Position numbers and translations under genes: made by a program
DNA from: a virus
Lineage: Duplodnaviria > Caudoviricetes
Virus record (IMG/VR): IMGVR_UViG_3300021408_000010
Span: 1-44,406 of that record
Strand: one strand, 5' to 3'
Length of the DNA: 44,406 nucleotides
The notes under the pieces: model-generated
What the model was told of the DNA's origin: nothing
Databases searched by the model: none
What the model saw: the letters and a program-made list of their open reading frames with translations, nothing else
Part shown: positions 392 to 44,059 of the stretch, in pieces
Position numbering within the stretch: the stretch's first letter is position 1
Layout of the letters: every line of letters starts with the position of its first letter

Positions 392-865
392 ATGGAAAGC
401 GACGATCAGGTTATGGTGGCTCTTCTTCCGATCATGTCGGATTGGGCCAACATTGAATTTCCTCATCTAACTTTGGTTTATGCGGGACGTAAGAGCGAGC
501 TCTCGCCGTCGGACATGGACGGTCTGGCCAAGGCGGCTTTCGCCATCGCGATGATGGGAACTCCGATCACCCTTCGCACCCTGACAAAGGACGTGTTTGG
601 CGAAGGCACGGACGACAGCCCCAAAGTGGATGTCCTTAGATTTCATCCCAATCTTGCTTTGCTGAAGATGTGGAACACAGTTAAGGAATGGAACGCCAGC
701 GACTTCGATTACGAGCCGCATTTGACAGTGGGGCCCGAAGGCACGTGGGATTCGAAGTCTTCCCCCGTCATGGTTGCGTTCGATGTCGTGTGTTTCTGCG
801 TCGGTAACGAGCGTCAAGAATTTCGTATGTCGCGCCGCCCGGATGGTGATGACTATGTCTACTAA
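392..865 (+). CDS. 2H phosphoesterase superfamily protein (2'-5' RNA ligase/Acb1-like)
   Basis: Two HxT motifs, PHLTLVY and PHLTVG, about 85 aa apart in 157 aa; AAGGAG RBS. Confidence 0.8.
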   Translation: MESDDQVMVALLPIMSDWANIEFPHLTLVYAGRKSELSPSDMDGLAKAAFAIAMMGTPITLRTLTKDVFGEGTDDSPKVDVLRFHPNLALLKMWNTVKEWNASDFDYEPHLTVGPEGTWDSKSSPVMVAFDVVCFCVGNERQEFRMSRRPDGDDYVY

Positions 866-34215: not shown

Positions 34216-34607
34216 TGGAGCCAGAGGATACGGGCAAGGAGTCCCGGGAGCCTATCGATTTCGAGGGGTTCTCGACCCAGAAGGACCTGCCCGTTGGCGA
34301 TTTCCGTGAGCGGCCTATTCGGAGCAACCTTGTCGAAGTCACAGTGGCCTGCCCTGAGTGCCATGGTATGAACCGCCGGGCCAAGCGCGCGTGCGATACC
34401 TGCGATGGCGCAGGGGTCGTGAAGAAGGTCGTCACTCAGGACGAGATCACCGGGGAGGACCCGCTCAACTGTGATAAGTGGGGCGAGGTCGACTTCGGTC
34501 TGGGCCCTGTACTAATTCGATGCACACAGTCGGGCGAGCATGACGAGCATGGTTGCACCGTCATCTTTGAGGAGGATGAGGAGGAACCCGATCCTAATCT
34601 GAACTAA
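34212..34607 (+). CDS. Zn-finger protein (DnaJ-type CxxCxG repeats)
   Basis: CPECHG...CDTCDGAG plus a second Cys/His cluster. Confidence 0.6.
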   Translation: MMEPEDTGKESREPIDFEGFSTQKDLPVGDFRERPIRSNLVEVTVACPECHGMNRRAKRACDTCDGAGVVKKVVTQDEITGEDPLNCDKWGEVDFGLGPVLIRCTQSGEHDEHGCTVIFEEDEEEPDPNLN

Positions 34608-34609
34608 TT

Positions 34610-34635
34610 CGCGAAAAAAACACAGGGTATAATGA
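34610..34635 (+). promoter_or_regulatory. promoter-like motif, copy 5
   Basis: CGC-GAAAAAA-ACA-CAGGG-TATAATGA; heads a non-coding structured tract. Confidence 0.8.
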
Positions 34636-34706
34636 AGGAGAGTGTGTATGCTGGCTAACGCCAGAGACGCGCTAGTTCGCGAACGGCATACTCTTCTTCT
34701 CTTTTC
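34634..34706 (+). ncRNA. candidate three-way-junction small RNA
   Basis: 14-bp closing stem GAAGGAGAGTGTGT/GCATACTCTTCTTC enclosing CTGGC-TAAC-GCCAG and CGCG-CTAGTT-CGCG; pyrimidine tract follows. Confidence 0.55.
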
Positions 34707-34722
34707 TGTTTTGGCCGGTGCC

Positions 34723-34850
34723 ACGGACGGCCCCCGGAACAGAAAATTCTTCAGCATGCTAAGAACCTCCGCCAAGGGATTCTTACTGTCTGCGGGAGTG
34801 GACTAACCCACCTGGGTCCGACTCTGTCAGGCCATTCTGAAGCCAACCGT
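34723..34850 (+). ncRNA. candidate multibranch structured RNA
   Basis: ACGG..GGC/GCC..CCGT closing; ACAG/CTGT, TTCTT/AAGAA, GAGTGGAC/GTCCGACTC and TCAGG/TCTGA helices. Confidence 0.45.
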
Positions 34851-34854
34851 TCTT

Positions 34855-34972
34855 GGGGGTATGCAATGGAGCCATTAAGCGCGGAGTCCCAGCAATGCGT
34901 TTAAACTTCTTGGCTGAGTCTGGTGAGCTCGGCATCCAGGAGAGCCGGTATTCGAAGCCGGGTACCCCCACC
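34855..34972 (+). ncRNA. tRNA-like (non-canonical) RNA
   Basis: 8-bp acceptor-like GGGGGTAT/GTACCCCC then ACC; T-arm CCGGT-ATTCGAA-GCCGG; arm TAAGCGC/GCGTTTA with 14-nt loop; long extra arm TTCTTGG/CCAGGAG. Confidence 0.6.
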
Positions 34973-35006
34973 TTTCCCGATCAACCCTTCAACACAAGGA
35001 ATGCTA

Positions 35007-35231
35007 ATGCAGACTCATTTCACTCTTACTTCCCCTGCCGGGCATTTCATCTTTCCGCTGGGGACAGTCCGAAGCAAGGCCAAGGTTGTTCGTGATGCGG
35101 TGACGGCTGGTAGTCGAGGGGCAATCCCTCATACGCCTCGTCCGCGTCCGGACAACGTCATGACCTGGTTCAAGAATCACGTCGCTGGGCCCGTTTCCGG
35201 CGAGATCACTTTCGAGTGGATCAAGGCTTAG
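35007..35231 (+). CDS. hypothetical protein
   Basis: AAGGA RBS; MQTHFTL...; the upstream part of ORF 34923 overlaps the RNA structure. Confidence 0.6.
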   Translation: MQTHFTLTSPAGHFIFPLGTVRSKAKVVRDAVTAGSRGAIPHTPRPRPDNVMTWFKNHVAGPVSGEITFEWIKA

Positions 35232-35243
35232 GAGGCCTACAAA

Positions 35244-35549
35244 GTGCTTAAGTACGAGATCACCTACGCCGCTGGCGAGGGTGCGCCGAAGACCGAGACC
35301 GTGGAATGCGACTTCGTTCAGCCCCCGGTTGAAGACAATGGTTGTCAGATCCAGTTCTACGTCGCGGCCGCATCAGGCCAGGCGGATCGCTTGGTGAAGC
35401 AGGTCAACCCTTCGGCCATCATCAAGATGGACCTTGTCCAGGGCGTCGAAGCCAAGAACGTCTTCGATCAGGTGTTCGATGGAGAGGATCCCTTGGCCGC
35501 GGAAGCGTTCGGCTTCGATGACAAGCGCGAGCAGCTGAGGAGCGAGTGA
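35244..35549 (+). CDS. hypothetical protein
   Basis: AGGAGG RBS, GTG start, strong codon bias. Confidence 0.7.
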   Translation: MLKYEITYAAGEGAPKTETVECDFVQPPVEDNGCQIQFYVAAASGQADRLVKQVNPSAIIKMDLVQGVEAKNVFDQVFDGEDPLAAEAFGFDDKREQLRSE

Positions 35550-35758
35550 TGGGCAAGCACACGACCAACACCGGAACTGGCGCCAAGCGTTCACGTTCGC
35601 GTCGGGATTCTCTCATGCAGCCGAAGCCTGATCAGTCCAAGTACCTGCGCAGGGCGCATGTGCGTCTCGAGAAGCGGCAGGCGGCGTGGGATGCGCTTCC
35701 GCTGGATAAGAAGCAGAAGACCACTCGTCCTGGTTGCATGAAGATGCGAACCAACTGA
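35546..35758 (+). CDS. small basic protein
   Basis: GAGGAG RBS; K/R-rich, 70 aa. Confidence 0.6.
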   Translation: MMGKHTTNTGTGAKRSRSRRDSLMQPKPDQSKYLRRAHVRLEKRQAAWDALPLDKKQKTTRPGCMKMRTN

Positions 35759-35906
35759 TGGGACGGGGACAGGAAGTAGAGATCCGTACACCTGAGGACC
35801 GCCCCTTCCCTTGGCGACCCCAGGACAACGGTCACATCACTGGTACTCCCACTCCGGAGCCGCCTAAGGATGACGGCATCAGTATCTGGCCGCGATAGGA
35901 GTCCGC

Positions 35907-36116
35907 GTGATTGTTATCGATCTAATCTGGTGGGCGGTGTGGGAGATCACCAAAGCGATTGGTTGGGTTGGGTGGATGATCATTGTTGTTATCCTGAACA
36001 TCATCGTGGGTATCATCAACCTCACCTTCTCGGTCATCTTCTCGCTTATGGGGTTGGACAAGAAGTCCGGCACACTCAAGGGCGTCAAGACCACGGCAAA
36101 AGGTAAGCGAAAGTAA
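35907..36116 (+). CDS. small membrane protein
   Basis: AGGAG RBS, GTG start; long hydrophobic segment and basic tail. Confidence 0.6.
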   Translation: MIVIDLIWWAVWEITKAIGWVGWMIIVVILNIIVGIINLTFSVIFSLMGLDKKSGTLKGVKTTAKGKRK

Positions 36117-36120
36117 GTCT

Positions 36121-36990
36121 AGGATGCTACCTGGCACGCTTATAGTTAGCTAAGGTACTGGCTGGTAACAAAGTCAGCCCATCCTTTGATCGTCCCCTTG
36201 CTTACGGCAAAGCGCTGGCTCTCGTTGAGGCGCGCCTGAGTGGCCTGATCAGTCACAAATAGCGAGAGTTATGTCGGTTCGAGTCCGGCCGAGGGGAACT
36301 TTGTTAGTGGGGACAGCGTGGGTCCGCCTCTTAAATGAGGGCGAAGCGTTTCGTCAGAGAAGAATGCCAGCGAGGCTCAAGGTTGTTAGTCAACACGGCG
36401 CTACACCCGTCGAAATGTGTCAACAATCTAGCAGCGTCCGGGGATAGCCCTTCGAGGTTAGCCTCAGTGGAGGTAAAGGCCCGGATTAACCTGTCAAGCA
36501 TGGAGATAGCTAGGCATTGCAGCGATTACCCACTACCTCGTCTGAGCGAGGCTAAATAGTTTTTAGGCTCAGAGCGTCAGGTGCTAGAGGCGAGGGCTCC
36601 ACATCGAGCGAGTCCCTTGTAGTTCTACAGTCTGTATCCAGTACCACGGACATAAAAACGTCGGCAGTGGCTTAAGGACGTCAGACCACCTGGGTAAGCG
36701 GAGAAGGTACTCCGAAACTCTCATGCGCATAGCGCTGCACGTGTGAGAGAGGGACAAAAAACCGGCATCGTTCATGATCTTAACTGGGCCTCTGGTCGAG
36801 TTAAGGGAAGAGGGGTTAAGACCGTTCCAATCTTAGCTTCCTTGTTATGGGTGGAATCCATAACGCGATGTGTCAGGTATGCAGGTTCTTCTATAGTTGA
36901 GAGATTAAATGTAGGGAGTTAAACCTCAGCCTGCACGCCATCACCTCGGGGAGGGTCGGTCGAGTCCGCCGAACTTGGCCTGCCCTCCCC
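36121..36990 (+). ncRNA. large ornate non-coding RNA or tandem ncRNA array (~870 nt)
   Basis: No credible gene; back-to-back closed domains with many G-U pairs on the + strand (details in findings). Confidence 0.65.
36193..36300 (+). ncRNA. tRNA-like element with canonical T-arm
   Basis: TCCCCTTG/CGAGGGGA acceptor-like stem; GTCGG-TTCGAGT-CCGGC T-arm; 12-bp helix TGGCTCTCGTTG/TAGCGAGAGTTA in place of the anticodon arm; no CCA. Confidence 0.65.
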
Positions 36991-37021
36991 TACCTAAGGT
37001 CTCCAACAGAAGAGAGTAAAC

Positions 37022-37381
37022 ATGAAGCGAATCATGCGGCTGGTTGCTGCTGTGGCTATCGTGGTCGGCCTGTTCGGGGCGGTCGCGGTTGTGGAGGTTG
37101 CTGATGCACCTCCCGCCAGCGCGCACAACCAGGACAACTACTCGTACTGGTACTGCTCGGCCCATCGGTCGAACGTCAACATGACCGTGATCCACTCCAA
37201 GGTCTACGGCCTGTGGCCCGGTCAGATCGGCTACTACTGCCGCGAGGACTTCTTCGGCGTCAGCTTCCAGTACTGGGTGATCGTTCAGCCCCCGGGCAGC
37301 AACTTCAGCTACATGCCTTGGGGCCGGCAGAAGTGCAACCCTGGCGGGATCGTCTGGTGCGAGGAGCCTGGTCCCTGGTGA
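37022..37381 (+). CDS. secreted Cys/aromatic-rich protein
   Basis: Sec signal MKRIMRLVAAVAIVVGLFGAV...PPASA; four Cys; many Y/W. Confidence 0.75.
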   Translation: MKRIMRLVAAVAIVVGLFGAVAVVEVADAPPASAHNQDNYSYWYCSAHRSNVNMTVIHSKVYGLWPGQIGYYCREDFFGVSFQYWVIVQPPGSNFSYMPWGRQKCNPGGIVWCEEPGPW

Positions 37382-37392
37382 CCTGAGTAAAA

Positions 37393-37424
37393 GAGAAGGC
37401 CCTTTAACCGGGGCTTTCTTTTTG
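37393..37424 (+). terminator. intrinsic terminator
   Basis: AGAAGGCCTT-TAACC-GGGGCTTTCT-TTTT. Confidence 0.75.
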
Positions 37425-37447
37425 CGTTAACATAGAGGAGACTTATC

Positions 37448-37768
37448 ATGCAACTAGCCGAGTTCTGCAAGAAGACAGGTGCGAGTCCTAAGCAAATTCA
37501 CTATTGGAACCGTGTCGGGATTGTCATGACGCGTAGTCGTTGGATCGGTCGTAACGATCGCTTCCGCGACTACGACGAGACCTTGATCCCTAAGGTTCAT
37601 CTGCTGGTGACCATCTCGTGGAAGATGGGTGGATGGTTCTCGGTGGATACACTGCTAGCGATCTGGGAGAACTACGAAGAGGAGAAGCTCGACCTTGGGG
37701 ACGGAGTAATCTTGGAATGGAGAACTAATGCTCGAGTTGATGTCGCATCAGAAAGATGCACTCGATAA
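37448..37768 (+). CDS. MerR-like HTH protein
   Basis: LAEFCKKTGASPKQIHYW...R...FRDYD; GAGGAG RBS. Confidence 0.65.
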   Translation: MQLAEFCKKTGASPKQIHYWNRVGIVMTRSRWIGRNDRFRDYDETLIPKVHLLVTISWKMGGWFSVDTLLAIWENYEEEKLDLGDGVILEWRTNARVDVASERCTR

Positions 37769-38927
37769 TCTGGATAATGGTAGAATCCTTTACGGGGGTG
37801 TTGGGAGTGGTAAGTCGGCTACGGCCATGGCTTACTACATGAAGCGGGAGAACCCAAAGGACATCTATGTCATCACCACAGCAAAGAAGAGAGATAGCCT
37901 TGAGTGGCTCGGAGAAGCTGCTCATTTCGGAATTGGAACGTCGACAGATAGCACGGTTGGTGGCGTGCTTAGGATTGATTCGTGGAACAACATTGGAAGC
38001 TACCTCGATATTGAAGGAGCTTTCTTCATCTTTGACGAACAAAGACTTGTCGGACATGGCGCTTGGGTTAAGTCATTCCTCCGAATTGCTGCGCGAAACA
38101 AGTGGATTATGCTTAGTGCAACTCCTGGAGATGCGTGGCTTGATTACGCGCCAGTCTTCATAGCCAACGGTTGGTACAAGAACATGACCGAGTTCAAGCG
38201 TCGTCATGTGATCTACGCGCCTTACATCAAGTTCCCTAAGATCATTGGGTATATTGGGGAGGATGTGTTAGATCGCTATCGTAATGAGATCTTGGTTGAG
38301 ATGCCATACCTCAAACACACCGAGCGTATGGTGAACTACCTTGAGGTGGGATACGACAAGGCGCTTGTGAAGAAGCTACAAGTAGAGAGATGGAACCATG
38401 TGGAGAATCGTCCTATCAAAGATGTTGCGGAGCTGTGGCGCCTTACTCGTATGGTTGTCAACAGTCATGGATCGCGCTGCAATACGATTCGCGGACTACT
38501 CAAATTCCACCAGAGATTGATAGTCTTCTACAACTTCGATTATGAGTTGGAGATACTGAGAGAGTTGGGAGATCGGCATGAAGTGTTTGAGTGGAACGGT
38601 CATAAGCACGACGAGGTTCCTACTTCGGACAGCTGGGTATATCTTGTGCAGTATACTGCTGGGTCTGAAGGCTGGAATTGCATAAGCACTGACGCTATGG
38701 CCTTCTATTCGCTCACATATTCGTACAAAAACTTTGCCCAAGCGCAAGGACGAATCGACAGATTGAACTCCCCATACACGGTTTTGTACTACTACGCGCT
38801 CCAAAGTGGGGCCTATATCGACTCGGCACTTAGGTTAGTACTTGCCGGGAAGAAATCCTTTAATGAGCGGGTTGGGCTTCAAGAATGGGAGAAAAGTGGG
38901 TTTTCTGGCACTTATCCGGCACTTTAA
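37728..38927 (+). CDS. SF2 DNA helicase
   Basis: L..HQ, GGVGSGKS, FDEQ, LSATP, GSEGWN, QAQGRIDR. Confidence 0.88.
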   Translation: MLELMSHQKDALDNLDNGRILYGGVGSGKSATAMAYYMKRENPKDIYVITTAKKRDSLEWLGEAAHFGIGTSTDSTVGGVLRIDSWNNIGSYLDIEGAFFIFDEQRLVGHGAWVKSFLRIAARNKWIMLSATPGDAWLDYAPVFIANGWYKNMTEFKRRHVIYAPYIKFPKIIGYIGEDVLDRYRNEILVEMPYLKHTERMVNYLEVGYDKALVKKLQVERWNHVENRPIKDVAELWRLTRMVVNSHGSRCNTIRGLLKFHQRLIVFYNFDYELEILRELGDRHEVFEWNGHKHDEVPTSDSWVYLVQYTAGSEGWNCISTDAMAFYSLTYSYKNFAQAQGRIDRLNSPYTVLYYYALQSGAYIDSALRLVLAGKKSFNERVGLQEWEKSGFSGTYPAL

Positions 38928-41407: not shown

Positions 41408-44059
41408 GTGCTCGTGATAATCGAAGAAGGAGACCTACTCCATTTTGGTATTCTTCGTCGGTCAGGCAGGTATCCGTGGGGCTCTGGTAAGACAGAGAAC
41501 ATTCGAAATAAGCAATTCCTTGATTACGTGGCAGATCTGAAGAGCAAGGGCTTGACTGAATCTCAGATCGCTCAAGGATTCGATGTGTCAGTGTCGGAGC
41601 TCCGCGCTACCAGATCCATCGCCAGGAACGAACAGCGTCAATCCGATATCGCTATGGCTCAGCGGTTGAAAGACAAGGGCTATTCCAACGTTGCGATTGG
41701 CGAACGCATGGGTAAGAATGAATCGACCGTAAGGTCTCTCCTTGCTCCTGGGGCCAAGGATAAGTCCGACATCCTTCAGAGTACGGCGGACATGCTCAAG
41801 GCTGAAGTAGCAGAGAAGGGCTACATCGACGTCGGCACAGGCACCGAAAGCTATATTAATGTTGCTGGTCGTAACGGTGTCTCTGCCACGCGCTTGGCAA
41901 CGGCCGTATCTATGCTGCGTGAGGAAGGCTATGAATACCACACTGTCAAGTTCACGCAGGTCGGCACAGGCCTCGAGACAACAGTCAAGGTCCTTGCTCC
42001 CCCAGGAACTACTCAGAAGGATGTGTTCCTCAACCGCGATAAGATTCGACTCATTGGAAGCTTCTCTGAGGATGGTGGACGATCCTACGGAAAGGCCTTG
42101 GATCCTATCAGCATCAGTGCGAAGCGGCTCGACATCAAGTACAAAGAAGATGGTGGAGACCAAGCAGACGGTGTAGTCTTTGTTCGACCAGGGGTAAAAG
42201 ACGTCTCTCTTGGTGGGGCAAAGTATGCACAGGTCCGCGTGAAGGTTGGTGGCAAGCACTACATCAAGGGCATGGCCCTGTACAAGGATGACCTCCCTGA
42301 TGGTGTAGATCTTCAATTCAACACCAACAAGTCAGACACCGGTAATAAGCTTGATGCACTGAAGAAGTTGGATCTAGAGAATCCAGACCTTCCTTTCGGA
42401 ACCATTGTTCGTCAGATTGGCGATAACATGGGAACACCGAAGAGTAAGGTTACCTCTGCCATGAACATTGTTTATGAAGAGGGTAACTGGGAGCAATGGA
42501 GCAAGACGCTTTCTTCACAGATGCTGTCCAAGCAAAGTCCTGCGCTAATCAGATCTCAGCTTGATCTGACTCTGGATCAGCGTACTTCTCAGTACAACGA
42601 AATCAAATCACTGACTAACCCGGTGGTTCGTAAGCGTTTGCTCGAGGACTTCGCTGCAGGTACCGATTCTGCATCCATTCAACTTAAGGCTGCCGCGCTA
42701 CCACAACAGGCAACACACGTAATCCTTCCGATCTCCAAGATCGAACCTACTCAAATCTATGCACCTAATTATGCCAATGGTGCTAGAGTCGTATTGATTC
42801 GTCACCCTCATGGTGGTCCTTTTGAAATCCCAGAACTCGTCGTCAACAACCGGAACCCAGAAGGAAGAAAGCTTCTCGGAAATTCTCGTGATGCTATTGG
42901 CATTCATCATAGCGTTGCAGAGCGTCTGTCTGGCGCTGATTTTGATGGAGACACAGTACTCGTTATCCCTAATAATCAAAGACGAGTTCGGTCTGACCCT
43001 GCCCTGGCTGACCTAAAGGGGTTTGATCCTAGGTCTTCGTATCCTGGCTATGAGGGTATGAAGAAGATGACGAATACTCAGACAGAGATGGGTAAGGTTT
43101 CTAACCTTATCACGGACATGTCTCTTCGTCAGGCCCCTCCTTCTGAGCTTGCCCGTGCAGTTAAGCATTCGATGGTTGTCATTGATGCAGAGAAGCATGG
43201 GTTGAACTACAAGCAATCCTATAATGATAACGGTATCAAGCAGCTGAAAGAGAAGTACCAAAAGGGTGGTGCTTCTACTCTAATCTCTAGGGCTAAGTCA
43301 AGAACCGATGTCCCAGAGAGAAAGCCTCGTACTGTTGGTAAGGGTGGCCCTGTTGATAAGGAGACTGGTGAGCTTAGGTTTGAGCCCACCAATCGTGTTA
43401 ACTTCAGGTCAGGCACACCCATAACCACTCGTAGTACCAAGCTAGCAGAGACAAAGGATGCGCATACCCTATCATCAGGTACCCCTGTTGAGCGCATCTA
43501 TGCGGACCATTCTAACAAGCTCAAGGCCATGGCCAACCAGGCTAGGCTAGATGCTTTAAGAACCCCCACTCCTCGCCAGTCACCCTCTGCTAGAAGCACG
43601 TACTCTGCACAAGTAGCTTCGCTCAATGCAAAGCTGGCCATCGCTGTTCGAAACCGCCCCCTCGAAAGGCAAGCCCAGCTCATAGCCAATGCCGTAGTGA
43701 AGGCCAAGAGAGATTACAATCCTAACATGGAACGTGAGACTCTCAAGAAGATAAAGTTCCAGGCCCTCACTGAAGCGCGCATTCGTACTGGTGCTGGCAA
43801 GCAGAAAATCAAGATAGATCCCACAGAATGGGAAGCTATCCAAGCTAACGCCATTAGTTCCTCGAAGCTTAATGACATTCTAAACAACGCCGACATGGAC
43901 GCAGTGCGAGACCTGGCTACCCCTAAGGAAGCCAAGCTAATGAATCCCTCCAAGACTAGTAGAGCTAAGTCAATGCTTGCATCTGGGTACACCAGGTCTG
44001 AGGTTGCGTCTGCTCTTGGTGTGTCTCTTAGTACCCTCGATACTGCAACTGTGAGCTAA
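41408..44059 (+). CDS. single-subunit two-barrel RNA polymerase (RNAi-RdRP/YonO-like) with HTH domains
   Basis: Ordered motifs ADG, AQVR..IKG, LIRHP, LSGADFDGD (DFDGD at 42938-42952), MGKVSN, HSMVVIDAEKHG; two N-terminal and one C-terminal HTH-like segments. Confidence 0.8.
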   Translation: MLVIIEEGDLLHFGILRRSGRYPWGSGKTENIRNKQFLDYVADLKSKGLTESQIAQGFDVSVSELRATRSIARNEQRQSDIAMAQRLKDKGYSNVAIGERMGKNESTVRSLLAPGAKDKSDILQSTADMLKAEVAEKGYIDVGTGTESYINVAGRNGVSATRLATAVSMLREEGYEYHTVKFTQVGTGLETTVKVLAPPGTTQKDVFLNRDKIRLIGSFSEDGGRSYGKALDPISISAKRLDIKYKEDGGDQADGVVFVRPGVKDVSLGGAKYAQVRVKVGGKHYIKGMALYKDDLPDGVDLQFNTNKSDTGNKLDALKKLDLENPDLPFGTIVRQIGDNMGTPKSKVTSAMNIVYEEGNWEQWSKTLSSQMLSKQSPALIRSQLDLTLDQRTSQYNEIKSLTNPVVRKRLLEDFAAGTDSASIQLKAAALPQQATHVILPISKIEPTQIYAPNYANGARVVLIRHPHGGPFEIPELVVNNRNPEGRKLLGNSRDAIGIHHSVAERLSGADFDGDTVLVIPNNQRRVRSDPALADLKGFDPRSSYPGYEGMKKMTNTQTEMGKVSNLITDMSLRQAPPSELARAVKHSMVVIDAEKHGLNYKQSYNDNGIKQLKEKYQKGGASTLISRAKSRTDVPERKPRTVGKGGPVDKETGELRFEPTNRVNFRSGTPITTRSTKLAETKDAHTLSSGTPVERIYADHSNKLKAMANQARLDALRTPTPRQSPSARSTYSAQVASLNAKLAIAVRNRPLERQAQLIANAVVKAKRDYNPNMERETLKKIKFQALTEARIRTGAGKQKIKIDPTEWEAIQANAISSSKLNDILNNADMDAVRDLATPKEAKLMNPSKTSRAKSMLASGYTRSEVASALGVSLSTLDTATVS

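What the first reader, a model, noticed from the sequence alone, without database searches (positions are those of the whole stretch)
36121..36990. ~870-nt gene-free tract of back-to-back RNA domains: possible new large ornate ncRNA or ncRNA array
Seen by manual pairing: (A) 36121-36185 three-way junction AGGATG/CATCCT with TACCT/AGGTA and GGCTGG/TCAGCC; (B) tRNA-like 36193-36297; (C) 36305-36535 closed by TAGTGGG/CCCACTA with nested AATGCC/GGCATT and TCCGGG/CCCGGA; (D) pseudoknot 36536-36573; (E) 36578-36692 CAGGTG/CACCTG with GCGAGGG/CCCTTGT and ACGTC/GACGT; (F) hairpins CGGAG/CTCCG and CTCTCATGCG/CGTGTGAGAG; (G) cloverleaf 36766-36870; (H) 36876-36939 TGCAGG/CCTGCA; (I) 36948-36990 long hairpin. 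Frequent G-U pairs favour + strand RNA structure over DNA palindromes. The genome is otherwise tightly packed. Size and tRNA-adjacent phage context recall GOLLD/ROOL RNAs, but I cannot assign it to either.
Basis: partly seen in the sequence, partly recalled or inferred. Interest (0 to 1): 0.9.

Follow-up and report, generated by a model that had tools for sequence, protein, structure and literature searches.

The report
Ribozyme-released, self-pairing phage RNA
The gene-free stretch is a chain of separate RNA modules, not one giant RNA: at its centre a known self-cutting pistol ribozyme is fused to a conserved folded RNA of about 245 bases that matches no catalogued family, which the ribozyme likely cuts free and which is predicted to pair with copies of itself through a palindromic loop.

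Summary
The 905-nt gap and the listed helices are real. It is not GOLLD or ROOL, and not one RNA. Domains D+E are a single pistol ribozyme (Rfam 41.7 bits) with a ~100-nt insert in P3; the predicted cut is G36694/U36695. Domains F, G and H form a conserved RNA with no Rfam match, found in 71 phage and metagenome sequences (window included), 68 with an intact-looking pistol directly upstream. It comprises a hairpin, a second hairpin, an A-rich tract, a multibranch domain and a 3' hairpin. The second hairpin's apex carries a palindromic hexamer in 41 of 71 copies, in 11 different sequences. Two loops of the multibranch domain are complementary and co-vary (18 of 48; at most 14 when permuted). 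This predicts kissing-loop dimers or oligomers. A, B, C and I are accessory modules that relatives lose or rearrange; A and the P3 insert belong to one unlisted three-way-junction motif (49 copies). The phage is related to actinophage clusters BI/EL/AU. Cultured Microbacterium phages Count and Camille carry a divergent copy. Cleavage, expression, dimerisation and function are untested; a trans-acting decoy or scaffold role is my best guess.

The parts
34610..34634 (+). Promoter-like repeat (A-tract then TATAAT); likely start of the transcript carrying the array (inferred)
   Evidence: Only TATAAT in 34500-37500; similar repeats elsewhere in the genome and in relatives; no intrinsic-terminator match in 34400-37800
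34756..34835 (+).
   Evidence: Fold and motif positions; homologues in L001 and L138; it did not pass the strict descriptor
36121..36185 (+). Domain A: free-standing 3WJ module, not in Rfam
   Evidence: Descriptor hit among 49 distinct copies, 0 in 442 kb of shuffled DNA
36194..36297 (+). Domain B: tRNA-like element (7-bp acceptor, T arm; anticodon arm replaced by a long arm ending in a TGATCA loop at 36246-36251; no encoded CCA)
   Evidence: ARAGORN calls 36218-36297 tRNA-Ile(GAT) but Rfam tRNA does not match; similar element in L001; near-identical copy in run X3
36305..36535 (+). Domain C: 231-nt expanded copy of a 48-70-nt three-way-junction core found in other phages
   Evidence: 21 viral hits, 16 distinct, all with the unsearched central TTTC; interior has no homologue
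36536..36699 (+).
   Evidence: Rfam RF02679 41.7 bits, cut-off 34.5; distal P3 and P2 strands from 67 anchored homologues
36581..36689 (+). 3WJ module inserted in the P3 loop of the pistol
   Evidence: 26 of the 49 module copies lie in pistol P3; a contig in run X3 has 91 other letters here
36694..36695 (+). Predicted cleavage site G/U
   Evidence: Two-nucleotide junction between P3 and P2, as in PMC4604425; GU 38, AU 27, other 2 of 67 homologues
36695..36939 (+).
   Evidence: 71 copies; 160-301 nt to the end of the 3' hairpin in 59 parsed copies; no Rfam match
36699..36714 (+). Hairpin HA (5 bp, AAGG loop)
   Evidence: All five pairs kept in 67 of 67, two with compensatory changes (pairing was part of the selection)
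36718..36749 (+). Hairpin HB with palindromic apex AGCGCT at 36731-36736; predicted self-kissing loop
36752..36764 (+). Conserved A-rich tract ending in CCG; predicted to run along HA and pair with its loop
   Evidence: 6-bp loop-tail pairing with a compensatory change between phages Count and Camille
36765..36875 (+).
36876..36939 (+).
   Evidence: Homologue at the same place in L138 (nhmmer E 7.7e-9); a GC-rich hairpin follows HC in the 59 copies folded
36948..36990 (+). Hairpin I, ahead of the ribosome site of ORF 37022-37381
   Evidence: z -4.77; identical piece in run X3; a hairpin at the same place in L001 and L138

Best explanation
The tract is an array of independent RNA modules, in which a pistol ribozyme likely cuts the transcript at G36694/U36695 and so frees a conserved RNA of about 245 nt that is predicted to dimerise through a palindromic loop and would act in trans as a stable decoy or scaffold. 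Shown by sequence comparison: pistol membership, the P3 insert, the fixed fusion of pistol and downstream RNA, its helices, the palindrome switching and the loop-loop covariation.
For: Pistol: Rfam hit above cut-off. P1 (inner three pairs) and the pseudoknot (first five pairs) are paired in 66 of 66 copies. The two P2 pairs next to the cut are paired in 64 and 59 of 67 with compensatory swaps across P3 inserts of 12-186 nt. Fusion: first seen without motif bias in 10 of 80 loci fetched by the helicase; then 71 distinct copies, 68 with an intact-looking pistol. Palindrome: 41 of 71 apices against 41 of 400 control apices; 32 of 59 cluster representatives against a shuffled mean of 8.2, maximum 16. 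Eleven hexamers occur, usually off-centre in the loop. Close relatives switch hexamer: window AGCGCT, L138 TTGCAA, two X3 contigs TAGCTA and CGCGCG (read from the difference tables). The same argument was used for OLE and GOLLD bridges seen by cryo-EM (bioRxiv 10.1101/2024.12.08.627333). Loop-loop: at least 5 Watson-Crick pairs in 18 of 48 representatives, at most 14 in 2000 cross-locus permutations. Trans action: the first downstream ORFs of 56 loci fall into 46 clusters.
Against: No RNA data, cleavage assay or structure. 30 of 71 copies have no perfect hexamer palindrome and 30 of 48 miss the 5-pair kissing threshold (some may be misfolded by the predictor). Only 18 of 59 copies have a U-rich tail after HD, and the window has none, so the 3' end is unproven. 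P2's third pair is a mismatch in 54 of 67, which might slow cleavage. Three main-type copies have a degenerate or missing pistol (L341, L350, L366) and L030 has none adjacent. Conservation of HA and the A-tract is partly built into my search patterns. No partner protein or target was identified.
Confidence: 0.6

Rival explanations
1. The same cut happens, but the downstream structure is a stabilising 5' leader that stays attached to the mRNA of whatever genes follow, here ORF 37022 onward.
For: No terminator-like site in the window; U-rich tail in only 18 of 59 copies; an ORF with a ribosome site follows at 87-866 nt in 56 loci; processing of polycistronic transcripts is a proposed role of bacterial ribozymes (PMC6765202).
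Against: A leader does not need a palindromic self-kissing loop or a covarying kissing domain; the RNA is often followed by further modules or tRNAs rather than a gene.
Confidence: 0.2
2. HA plus the A-tract is a ligand- or protein-sensing pseudoknot that controls pistol cleavage, since the first base of HA also completes pistol P2.
For: P2's fourth pair uses HA's first base (paired in 57 of 67). A 5-bp stem with an A-rich tail recalls class I preQ1 riboswitch architecture (recalled, not tested).
Against: No Rfam riboswitch match even at E<=10; no common downstream gene; the domain persists where the pistol is lost.
Confidence: 0.08
3. One reading: the whole 870 nt is one large ornate RNA of the GOLLD or ROOL kind.
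For: Size, phage context and a tRNA-like neighbour; kissing loops are a feature of those RNAs.
Against: No GOLLD or ROOL match; modules are lost or reordered in relatives; an internal self-cleaving ribozyme; no homologue spans the tract.
Confidence: 0.04
4. The released RNA is a packaging RNA analogous to phi29 prohead RNA, forming a ring through its complementary loops.
For: A closing helix with a bulge, two hairpins with complementary loops and a 3' hairpin resemble pRNA architecture (recalled; pRNA oligomers are mentioned in PMC12990946).
Against: The phage has an ordinary terminase and portal. The element is accessory: the SSB-helicase intervals of Streptomyces phages ClubPenguin and RosaAsantewaa have no such gap and no model match, and ClubPenguin has no pistol.
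Confidence: 0.04

Closest known systems
Pistol self-cleaving ribozyme (Rfam RF02679; PMC4604425; PMC6154101)
   Same: P1, pseudoknot, AAA linker, purine-32/G33, G40-C41-G42 equivalents, two-nucleotide GU junction between P3 and P2, phage context.
   Different: P3 loop carries a ~100-nt three-way junction; P2 is short or imperfect and overlaps the first helix of a conserved downstream RNA.
Theta ribozymes (PMC10879173)
   Same: A phage self-cleaving ribozyme placed with its cut site at the end of a stable RNA gene.
   Different: Theta is HDV-like and trims tRNA 3' ends; here a pistol would make the 5' end of a non-tRNA RNA.
GOLLD, ROOL, OLE and ARRPOF multimeric RNAs (PMC5737381; bioRxiv 10.1101/2024.12.08.627333; PMC12990946)
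   Same: Structured RNAs of unknown function with kissing loops; OLE and GOLLD have palindrome-switching self-kissing loops; GOLLD and ROOL lie in phages near tRNAs; ARRPOF is of similar size (255 nt) and dimerises.
   Different: No model match, different secondary structure, much shorter than GOLLD or ROOL; in the passages read none is described as released by a ribozyme.
tRNA / phage tRNA-like elements (for domain B)
   Same: 7-bp acceptor stem, T stem and T loop.
   Different: Anticodon arm replaced by a long arm with a palindromic loop, D arm uncertain, no Rfam tRNA match.

Membership tests
Pistol ribozyme | Rfam RF02679 score above gathering threshold | tested here: met
   41.7 vs 34.5 bits; the model aligns the 5' half well but misplaces the 3' strand because of the insert
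Pistol ribozyme | Stems P1, P2, P3 and pseudoknot | tested here: met
   All formable in the window (P2 4 of 4 pairs, two U-A, one U-G, one G-C); covariation in 66-67 homologues
Pistol ribozyme | Conserved catalytic nucleotides and two-nucleotide P3/P2 junction | tested here: met
   G36566/G36567, G36574-C36575-G36576, G36694-U36695; numbering matched to PMC6154101 passages with recalled env25 numbering
Pistol ribozyme | Mg2+-dependent self-cleavage giving 2',3'-cyclic phosphate and 5'-OH | not testable with these tools
   Needs an in vitro assay
GOLLD | Conserved 3' domain (RF02032) | tested here: not met
   No match at E<=10
ROOL | RF03087 match; ~580 nt with six junctions and three pseudoknots | tested here: not met
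   No match at E<=10; one search also blank, but its controls rang nowhere, so it adds little; no homologue spans the tract
tRNA (domain B) | Cloverleaf with canonical D and anticodon arms | tested here: not met
   No RF00005 match; 103-nt element with enlarged middle arm; ARAGORN's call uses other borders
tRNA (domain G) | T loop and D loop | tested here: not met
   No ARAGORN or Rfam call; its loops are a covarying complementary pair
tmRNA, Y RNA, RNase P, SRP, introns, riboswitches | Rfam model match | tested here: not met
   Nothing credible at E<=10 in the window or in a compact homologue; none at E<=1 in 18 loci or E<=0.5 in 20 loci
Multimeric RNA-only assemblies (works like OLE/GOLLD/ARRPOF) | Palindrome-switching loop | tested here: met
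Multimeric RNA-only assemblies (works like OLE/GOLLD/ARRPOF) | Oligomer observed physically | not testable with these tools
   Needs native gel, mass photometry or cryo-EM

The most novel reading that the evidence does not exclude
It would be a ribozyme-released RNA particle that serves as a counter-defence decoy, accompanied by at least two further unlisted RNA motifs and a tRNA mimic.
Probability: 0.3. Interest if true: 0.9.

Novelty: new variant of a known kind. Interest (0 to 1): 0.72.

Why it matters
The biological purpose of most genomic self-cleaving ribozymes in bacteria and phages is open (PMC6765202). Here a pistol is fixed 2-4 nt ahead of a conserved RNA in 68 of 71 copies, which gives it a concrete, testable job. 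The RNA itself shows the sequence signature of RNA-RNA multimerisation, so far proven for only a few natural families, and at about 245 nt it suits cryo-EM. Two cultured lytic phages carry a divergent copy, so expression and deletion can be tested.

Tried and rejected
Folding z-scores: not discriminating. A partition function of the whole tract gives low probability to several conserved helices because it ignores pseudoknots. ARAGORN tRNA-Ile call: not accepted. BLAST of the tract against 50,697 cultured phage records found only the 39-nt pistol core. nhmmer found no homologue of A, B, C or I as whole sequences among fetched loci; A and C were placed only through motif descriptors. Searches for closer relatives by flanking ORFs gave one distant locus and none. 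The genome-contig scan gave 59 pattern matches, of which my parser accepted one, a small MAG contig with phage-like neighbours. Two of 73 regex hits (L239, L302) lie in coding sequence and were dropped as chance. Sequencing runs: no RNA holder listed; X1 may be the source of this DNA. No Ro60, RtcB or reverse transcriptase was found among the 48 and 38 ORFs scanned. A DNA-level reading of the palindrome (centre of an inverted repeat, or a protein site) was rejected because it is off-centre and changes sequence. Recalled resemblances to the SRP Alu domain, RNase P P4, the telomerase pseudoknot and the twister-sister junction got no Rfam support. Prior description: none seen in paper searches. 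In PMC10690425 (10,000 viral candidate RNAs) six supplementary files had no hit, but three files, including two very large ones, were not searched, so the motifs may already be listed there as anonymous candidates.

Full report
Setting. The window is a 44.4-kb tailed-phage record with all genes I identified on the + strand. It encodes terminase, portal, a protease-capsid fusion, a primase-polymerase, a helicase and an 883-aa protein matching PHROG 4291, annotated as an RNA polymerase. The helicase's best cultured relatives are Streptomyces phages ClubPenguin, Scarif, RosaAsantewaa and Bing at 57-61% identity, then Arthrobacter, Curtobacterium, Microbacterium and Gordonia phages. PMC7302621 describes this BI/EL/AM/AU/CC/DJ network (passages). 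An actinobacterial host is therefore likely but not shown. The listed DNA holders are soil metagenomes.

Observation. The gap 36117-37021 is 905 nt, the largest in the genome, and has no open frame above 82 codons. The case rests on comparison with relatives.

D and E are one pistol ribozyme. Rfam gives a single hit above threshold in the whole window: Pistol, 36536-36595, 41.7 bits. The model misplaces the 3' strand. In 67 anchored homologues the P3 insert ranges from 12 to 186 nt. The junction dinucleotide is GU in 38 and AU in 27. The two P2 pairs next to it are kept in 64 and 59 copies, with compensatory swaps; the register was chosen among three offsets. The third P2 pair is a mismatch in 54 of 67. 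The class features come from PMC4604425 (first quarter of the text) and PMC6154101 (passages). Cleavage at G36694/U36695 is predicted, not shown.

F, G and H are one conserved RNA fused to the cut site. Ten of 80 loci fetched only by helicase similarity carry a pistol followed by the same elements; many of the 80 are truncated upstream. Pattern scans of viral, metagenome and genome contigs gave 73 distinct hits, two dropped as chance. Of the 71, including the window, 68 have an intact-looking pistol 2-4 nt upstream of hairpin HA. Three have a degenerate or missing one, and L030 has the motif with no adjacent pistol. Most phage pistols lack this extension: a covariance model of the core matched beside the pistol in 15 of the 80 full-flank loci of the pistol-pattern scan. 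Fifty-one of 75 motif loci have flanking homologues of this phage group's proteins, and many of the rest have short flanks. The order is HA, HB, an A-rich tract ending in CCG, a closing helix HC around a variable multibranch domain, a two-base bulge (GA in 55 of 60), then a GC-rich hairpin HD. Length from the cut to the end of HD is 160-301 nt in 59 copies and 245 nt here. Rfam has no match for it.

Three tertiary signals. First, the HB apex carries a perfect palindromic hexamer in 41 of 71 copies against 41 of 400 control apices, in 11 different sequences. On 59 cluster representatives the count is 32 against a shuffled mean of 8.2, maximum 16. The palindrome usually sits off-centre, with one or two unpaired bases on its 5' side. 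Close relatives switch among AGCGCT (window), TTGCAA (L138), TAGCTA and CGCGCG (two X3 contigs, my reading). The same kind of switch was taken as evidence of intermolecular kissing in OLE and GOLLD (bioRxiv 10.1101/2024.12.08.627333, passages). Second, two hairpin loops in HC share at least five Watson-Crick pairs in 23 of 60 domains against a shuffled mean of 2.15. Taking only the last two hairpins, it is 18 of 48 representatives against at most 14 in 2000 cross-locus permutations. Third, divergent copies in the cultured phages Count and Camille show a 6-bp pairing between the HA loop and the bases after the A-tract, with one compensatory change (read by eye); L139 shows a 5-bp version. In the main type only one such pair is hinted at, in three sequences. 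A 5' pseudoknot is therefore likely for the divergent type and plausible for the window.

A, B, C and I are accessory modules. A structural descriptor finds 49 distinct copies of one three-way junction, 26 inside pistol P3 and 23 free. All 49 have a GU that the descriptor did not ask for, and 442 kb of shuffled DNA gave none. Domain A and the P3 insert are both members, and a third copy lies at 34756-34835. Across the set the loops are C-rich (CCGCC 18 against 3.4 expected, GGAGG 1 against 3.4), which suggests pairing with G-rich targets such as ribosome sites; this is inference, and A itself is not C-rich. C is an expanded form of a 48-70-nt junction seen in 16 distinct viral sequences, all with an unsearched central TTTC, 14 of them 21-33 nt before a start codon. 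B has an acceptor stem and T arm, with a long middle arm ending in a TGATCA loop that L001's copy shares. The modules move independently. L138 has the same flanking genes and pistol-HA-HB-HC-HD but no A, B or C. L001 has C-like before B-like, then a gene, then the pistol. An X3 contig has A+B with one change and diverges at 36300. One large ornate RNA is thus not supported, and GOLLD and ROOL do not match.

How it likely works. A transcript from the promoter-like site at 34610-34634 runs through the array; no terminator-like site intervenes. The pistol cuts, and the 3' product starts with a 5'-OH a few bases before a compact pseudoknot. From established knowledge of RNase E and RNase J, that end should resist 5'-end-dependent decay. 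The RNA would dimerise through HB and fold or polymerise through the HC loops. Downstream genes are unrelated (46 clusters among 56 loci), which argues against gene-specific regulation and for a trans-acting RNA, most likely a decoy or scaffold for a host factor. Against this: the 3' end is unproven (U-rich tail in 18 of 59, none here), a large minority lack perfect palindromes or kissing pairs, and no partner is known. A stabilising-leader role remains the main rival.

Novelty. The ribozyme is a member of a known class. The released RNA, the 3WJ module and the C core match nothing in Rfam 15. I saw no description in eight paper searches (listings) or in passages of PMC5737381, PMC12990946, PMC10879173 and PMC6765202. 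Three supplementary files of PMC10690425 could not be searched (otherwise only its listing was seen). Two earlier AI notes of this scan describe a pistol heading an undescribed ~200-nt RNA, or inside a modular phage RNA operon; they are leads, not independent support, and the short listings do not mention the palindrome or kissing loops. Verdict: a real and partly new system, a new variant of known kinds (ribozyme-matured phage RNA; kissing-loop RNA), interest 0.72.

Noticed in passing
window 34640-34930 and 35759-35906: Further structured non-coding stretches: the first is conserved in L001 (nhmmer E 3.7e-25) and holds a 3WJ module; the second has a C-rich loop and no homologue found.
   Followed up: partly
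window 41408-44059: 883-aa protein matching PHROG 4291, annotated RNA-dependent RNA polymerase; probably a phage transcription enzyme. Any link to the ncRNA is untested, and the gene is also present in relatives where no motif was seen.
   Followed up: no
window 392-865: Weak match to the 2'-5' RNA ligase (2H) family, below the Pfam cut-off (20.5 vs 27 bits); such enzymes can act on cyclic phosphates.
   Followed up: no
L007 4029 and 4295, L008 3905, 4378 and 6497, L016 655 and 1331: A repeated small pseudoknot-like motif ahead of genes in several relatives; no Rfam match in L007 or L008.
   Followed up: no
L480-L500: The short form of the C core lies just upstream of genes in other phages, apparently tail-region or HNH-like genes by inspection; no Rfam match in the 12 loci scanned.
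   Followed up: partly
L502 about 1560-1630 (Microbacterium phage Count): Degenerate tRNA-like element after the pistol-linked RNA, with nearly the same acceptor stem as domain B; annotated gene 88 overlaps the predicted RNA.
   Followed up: partly
L501, L503 (Curtobacterium phage Pippin15, Gordonia phage Austin): Unannotated pistol ribozymes followed by other structured-looking non-coding sequence that does not match the motif.
   Followed up: no
window 37022-37381: Probable secreted protein with an N-terminal hydrophobic signal; only 7 homologues found; a paralogue-like gene also lies upstream of the pistol in L001.
   Followed up: partly
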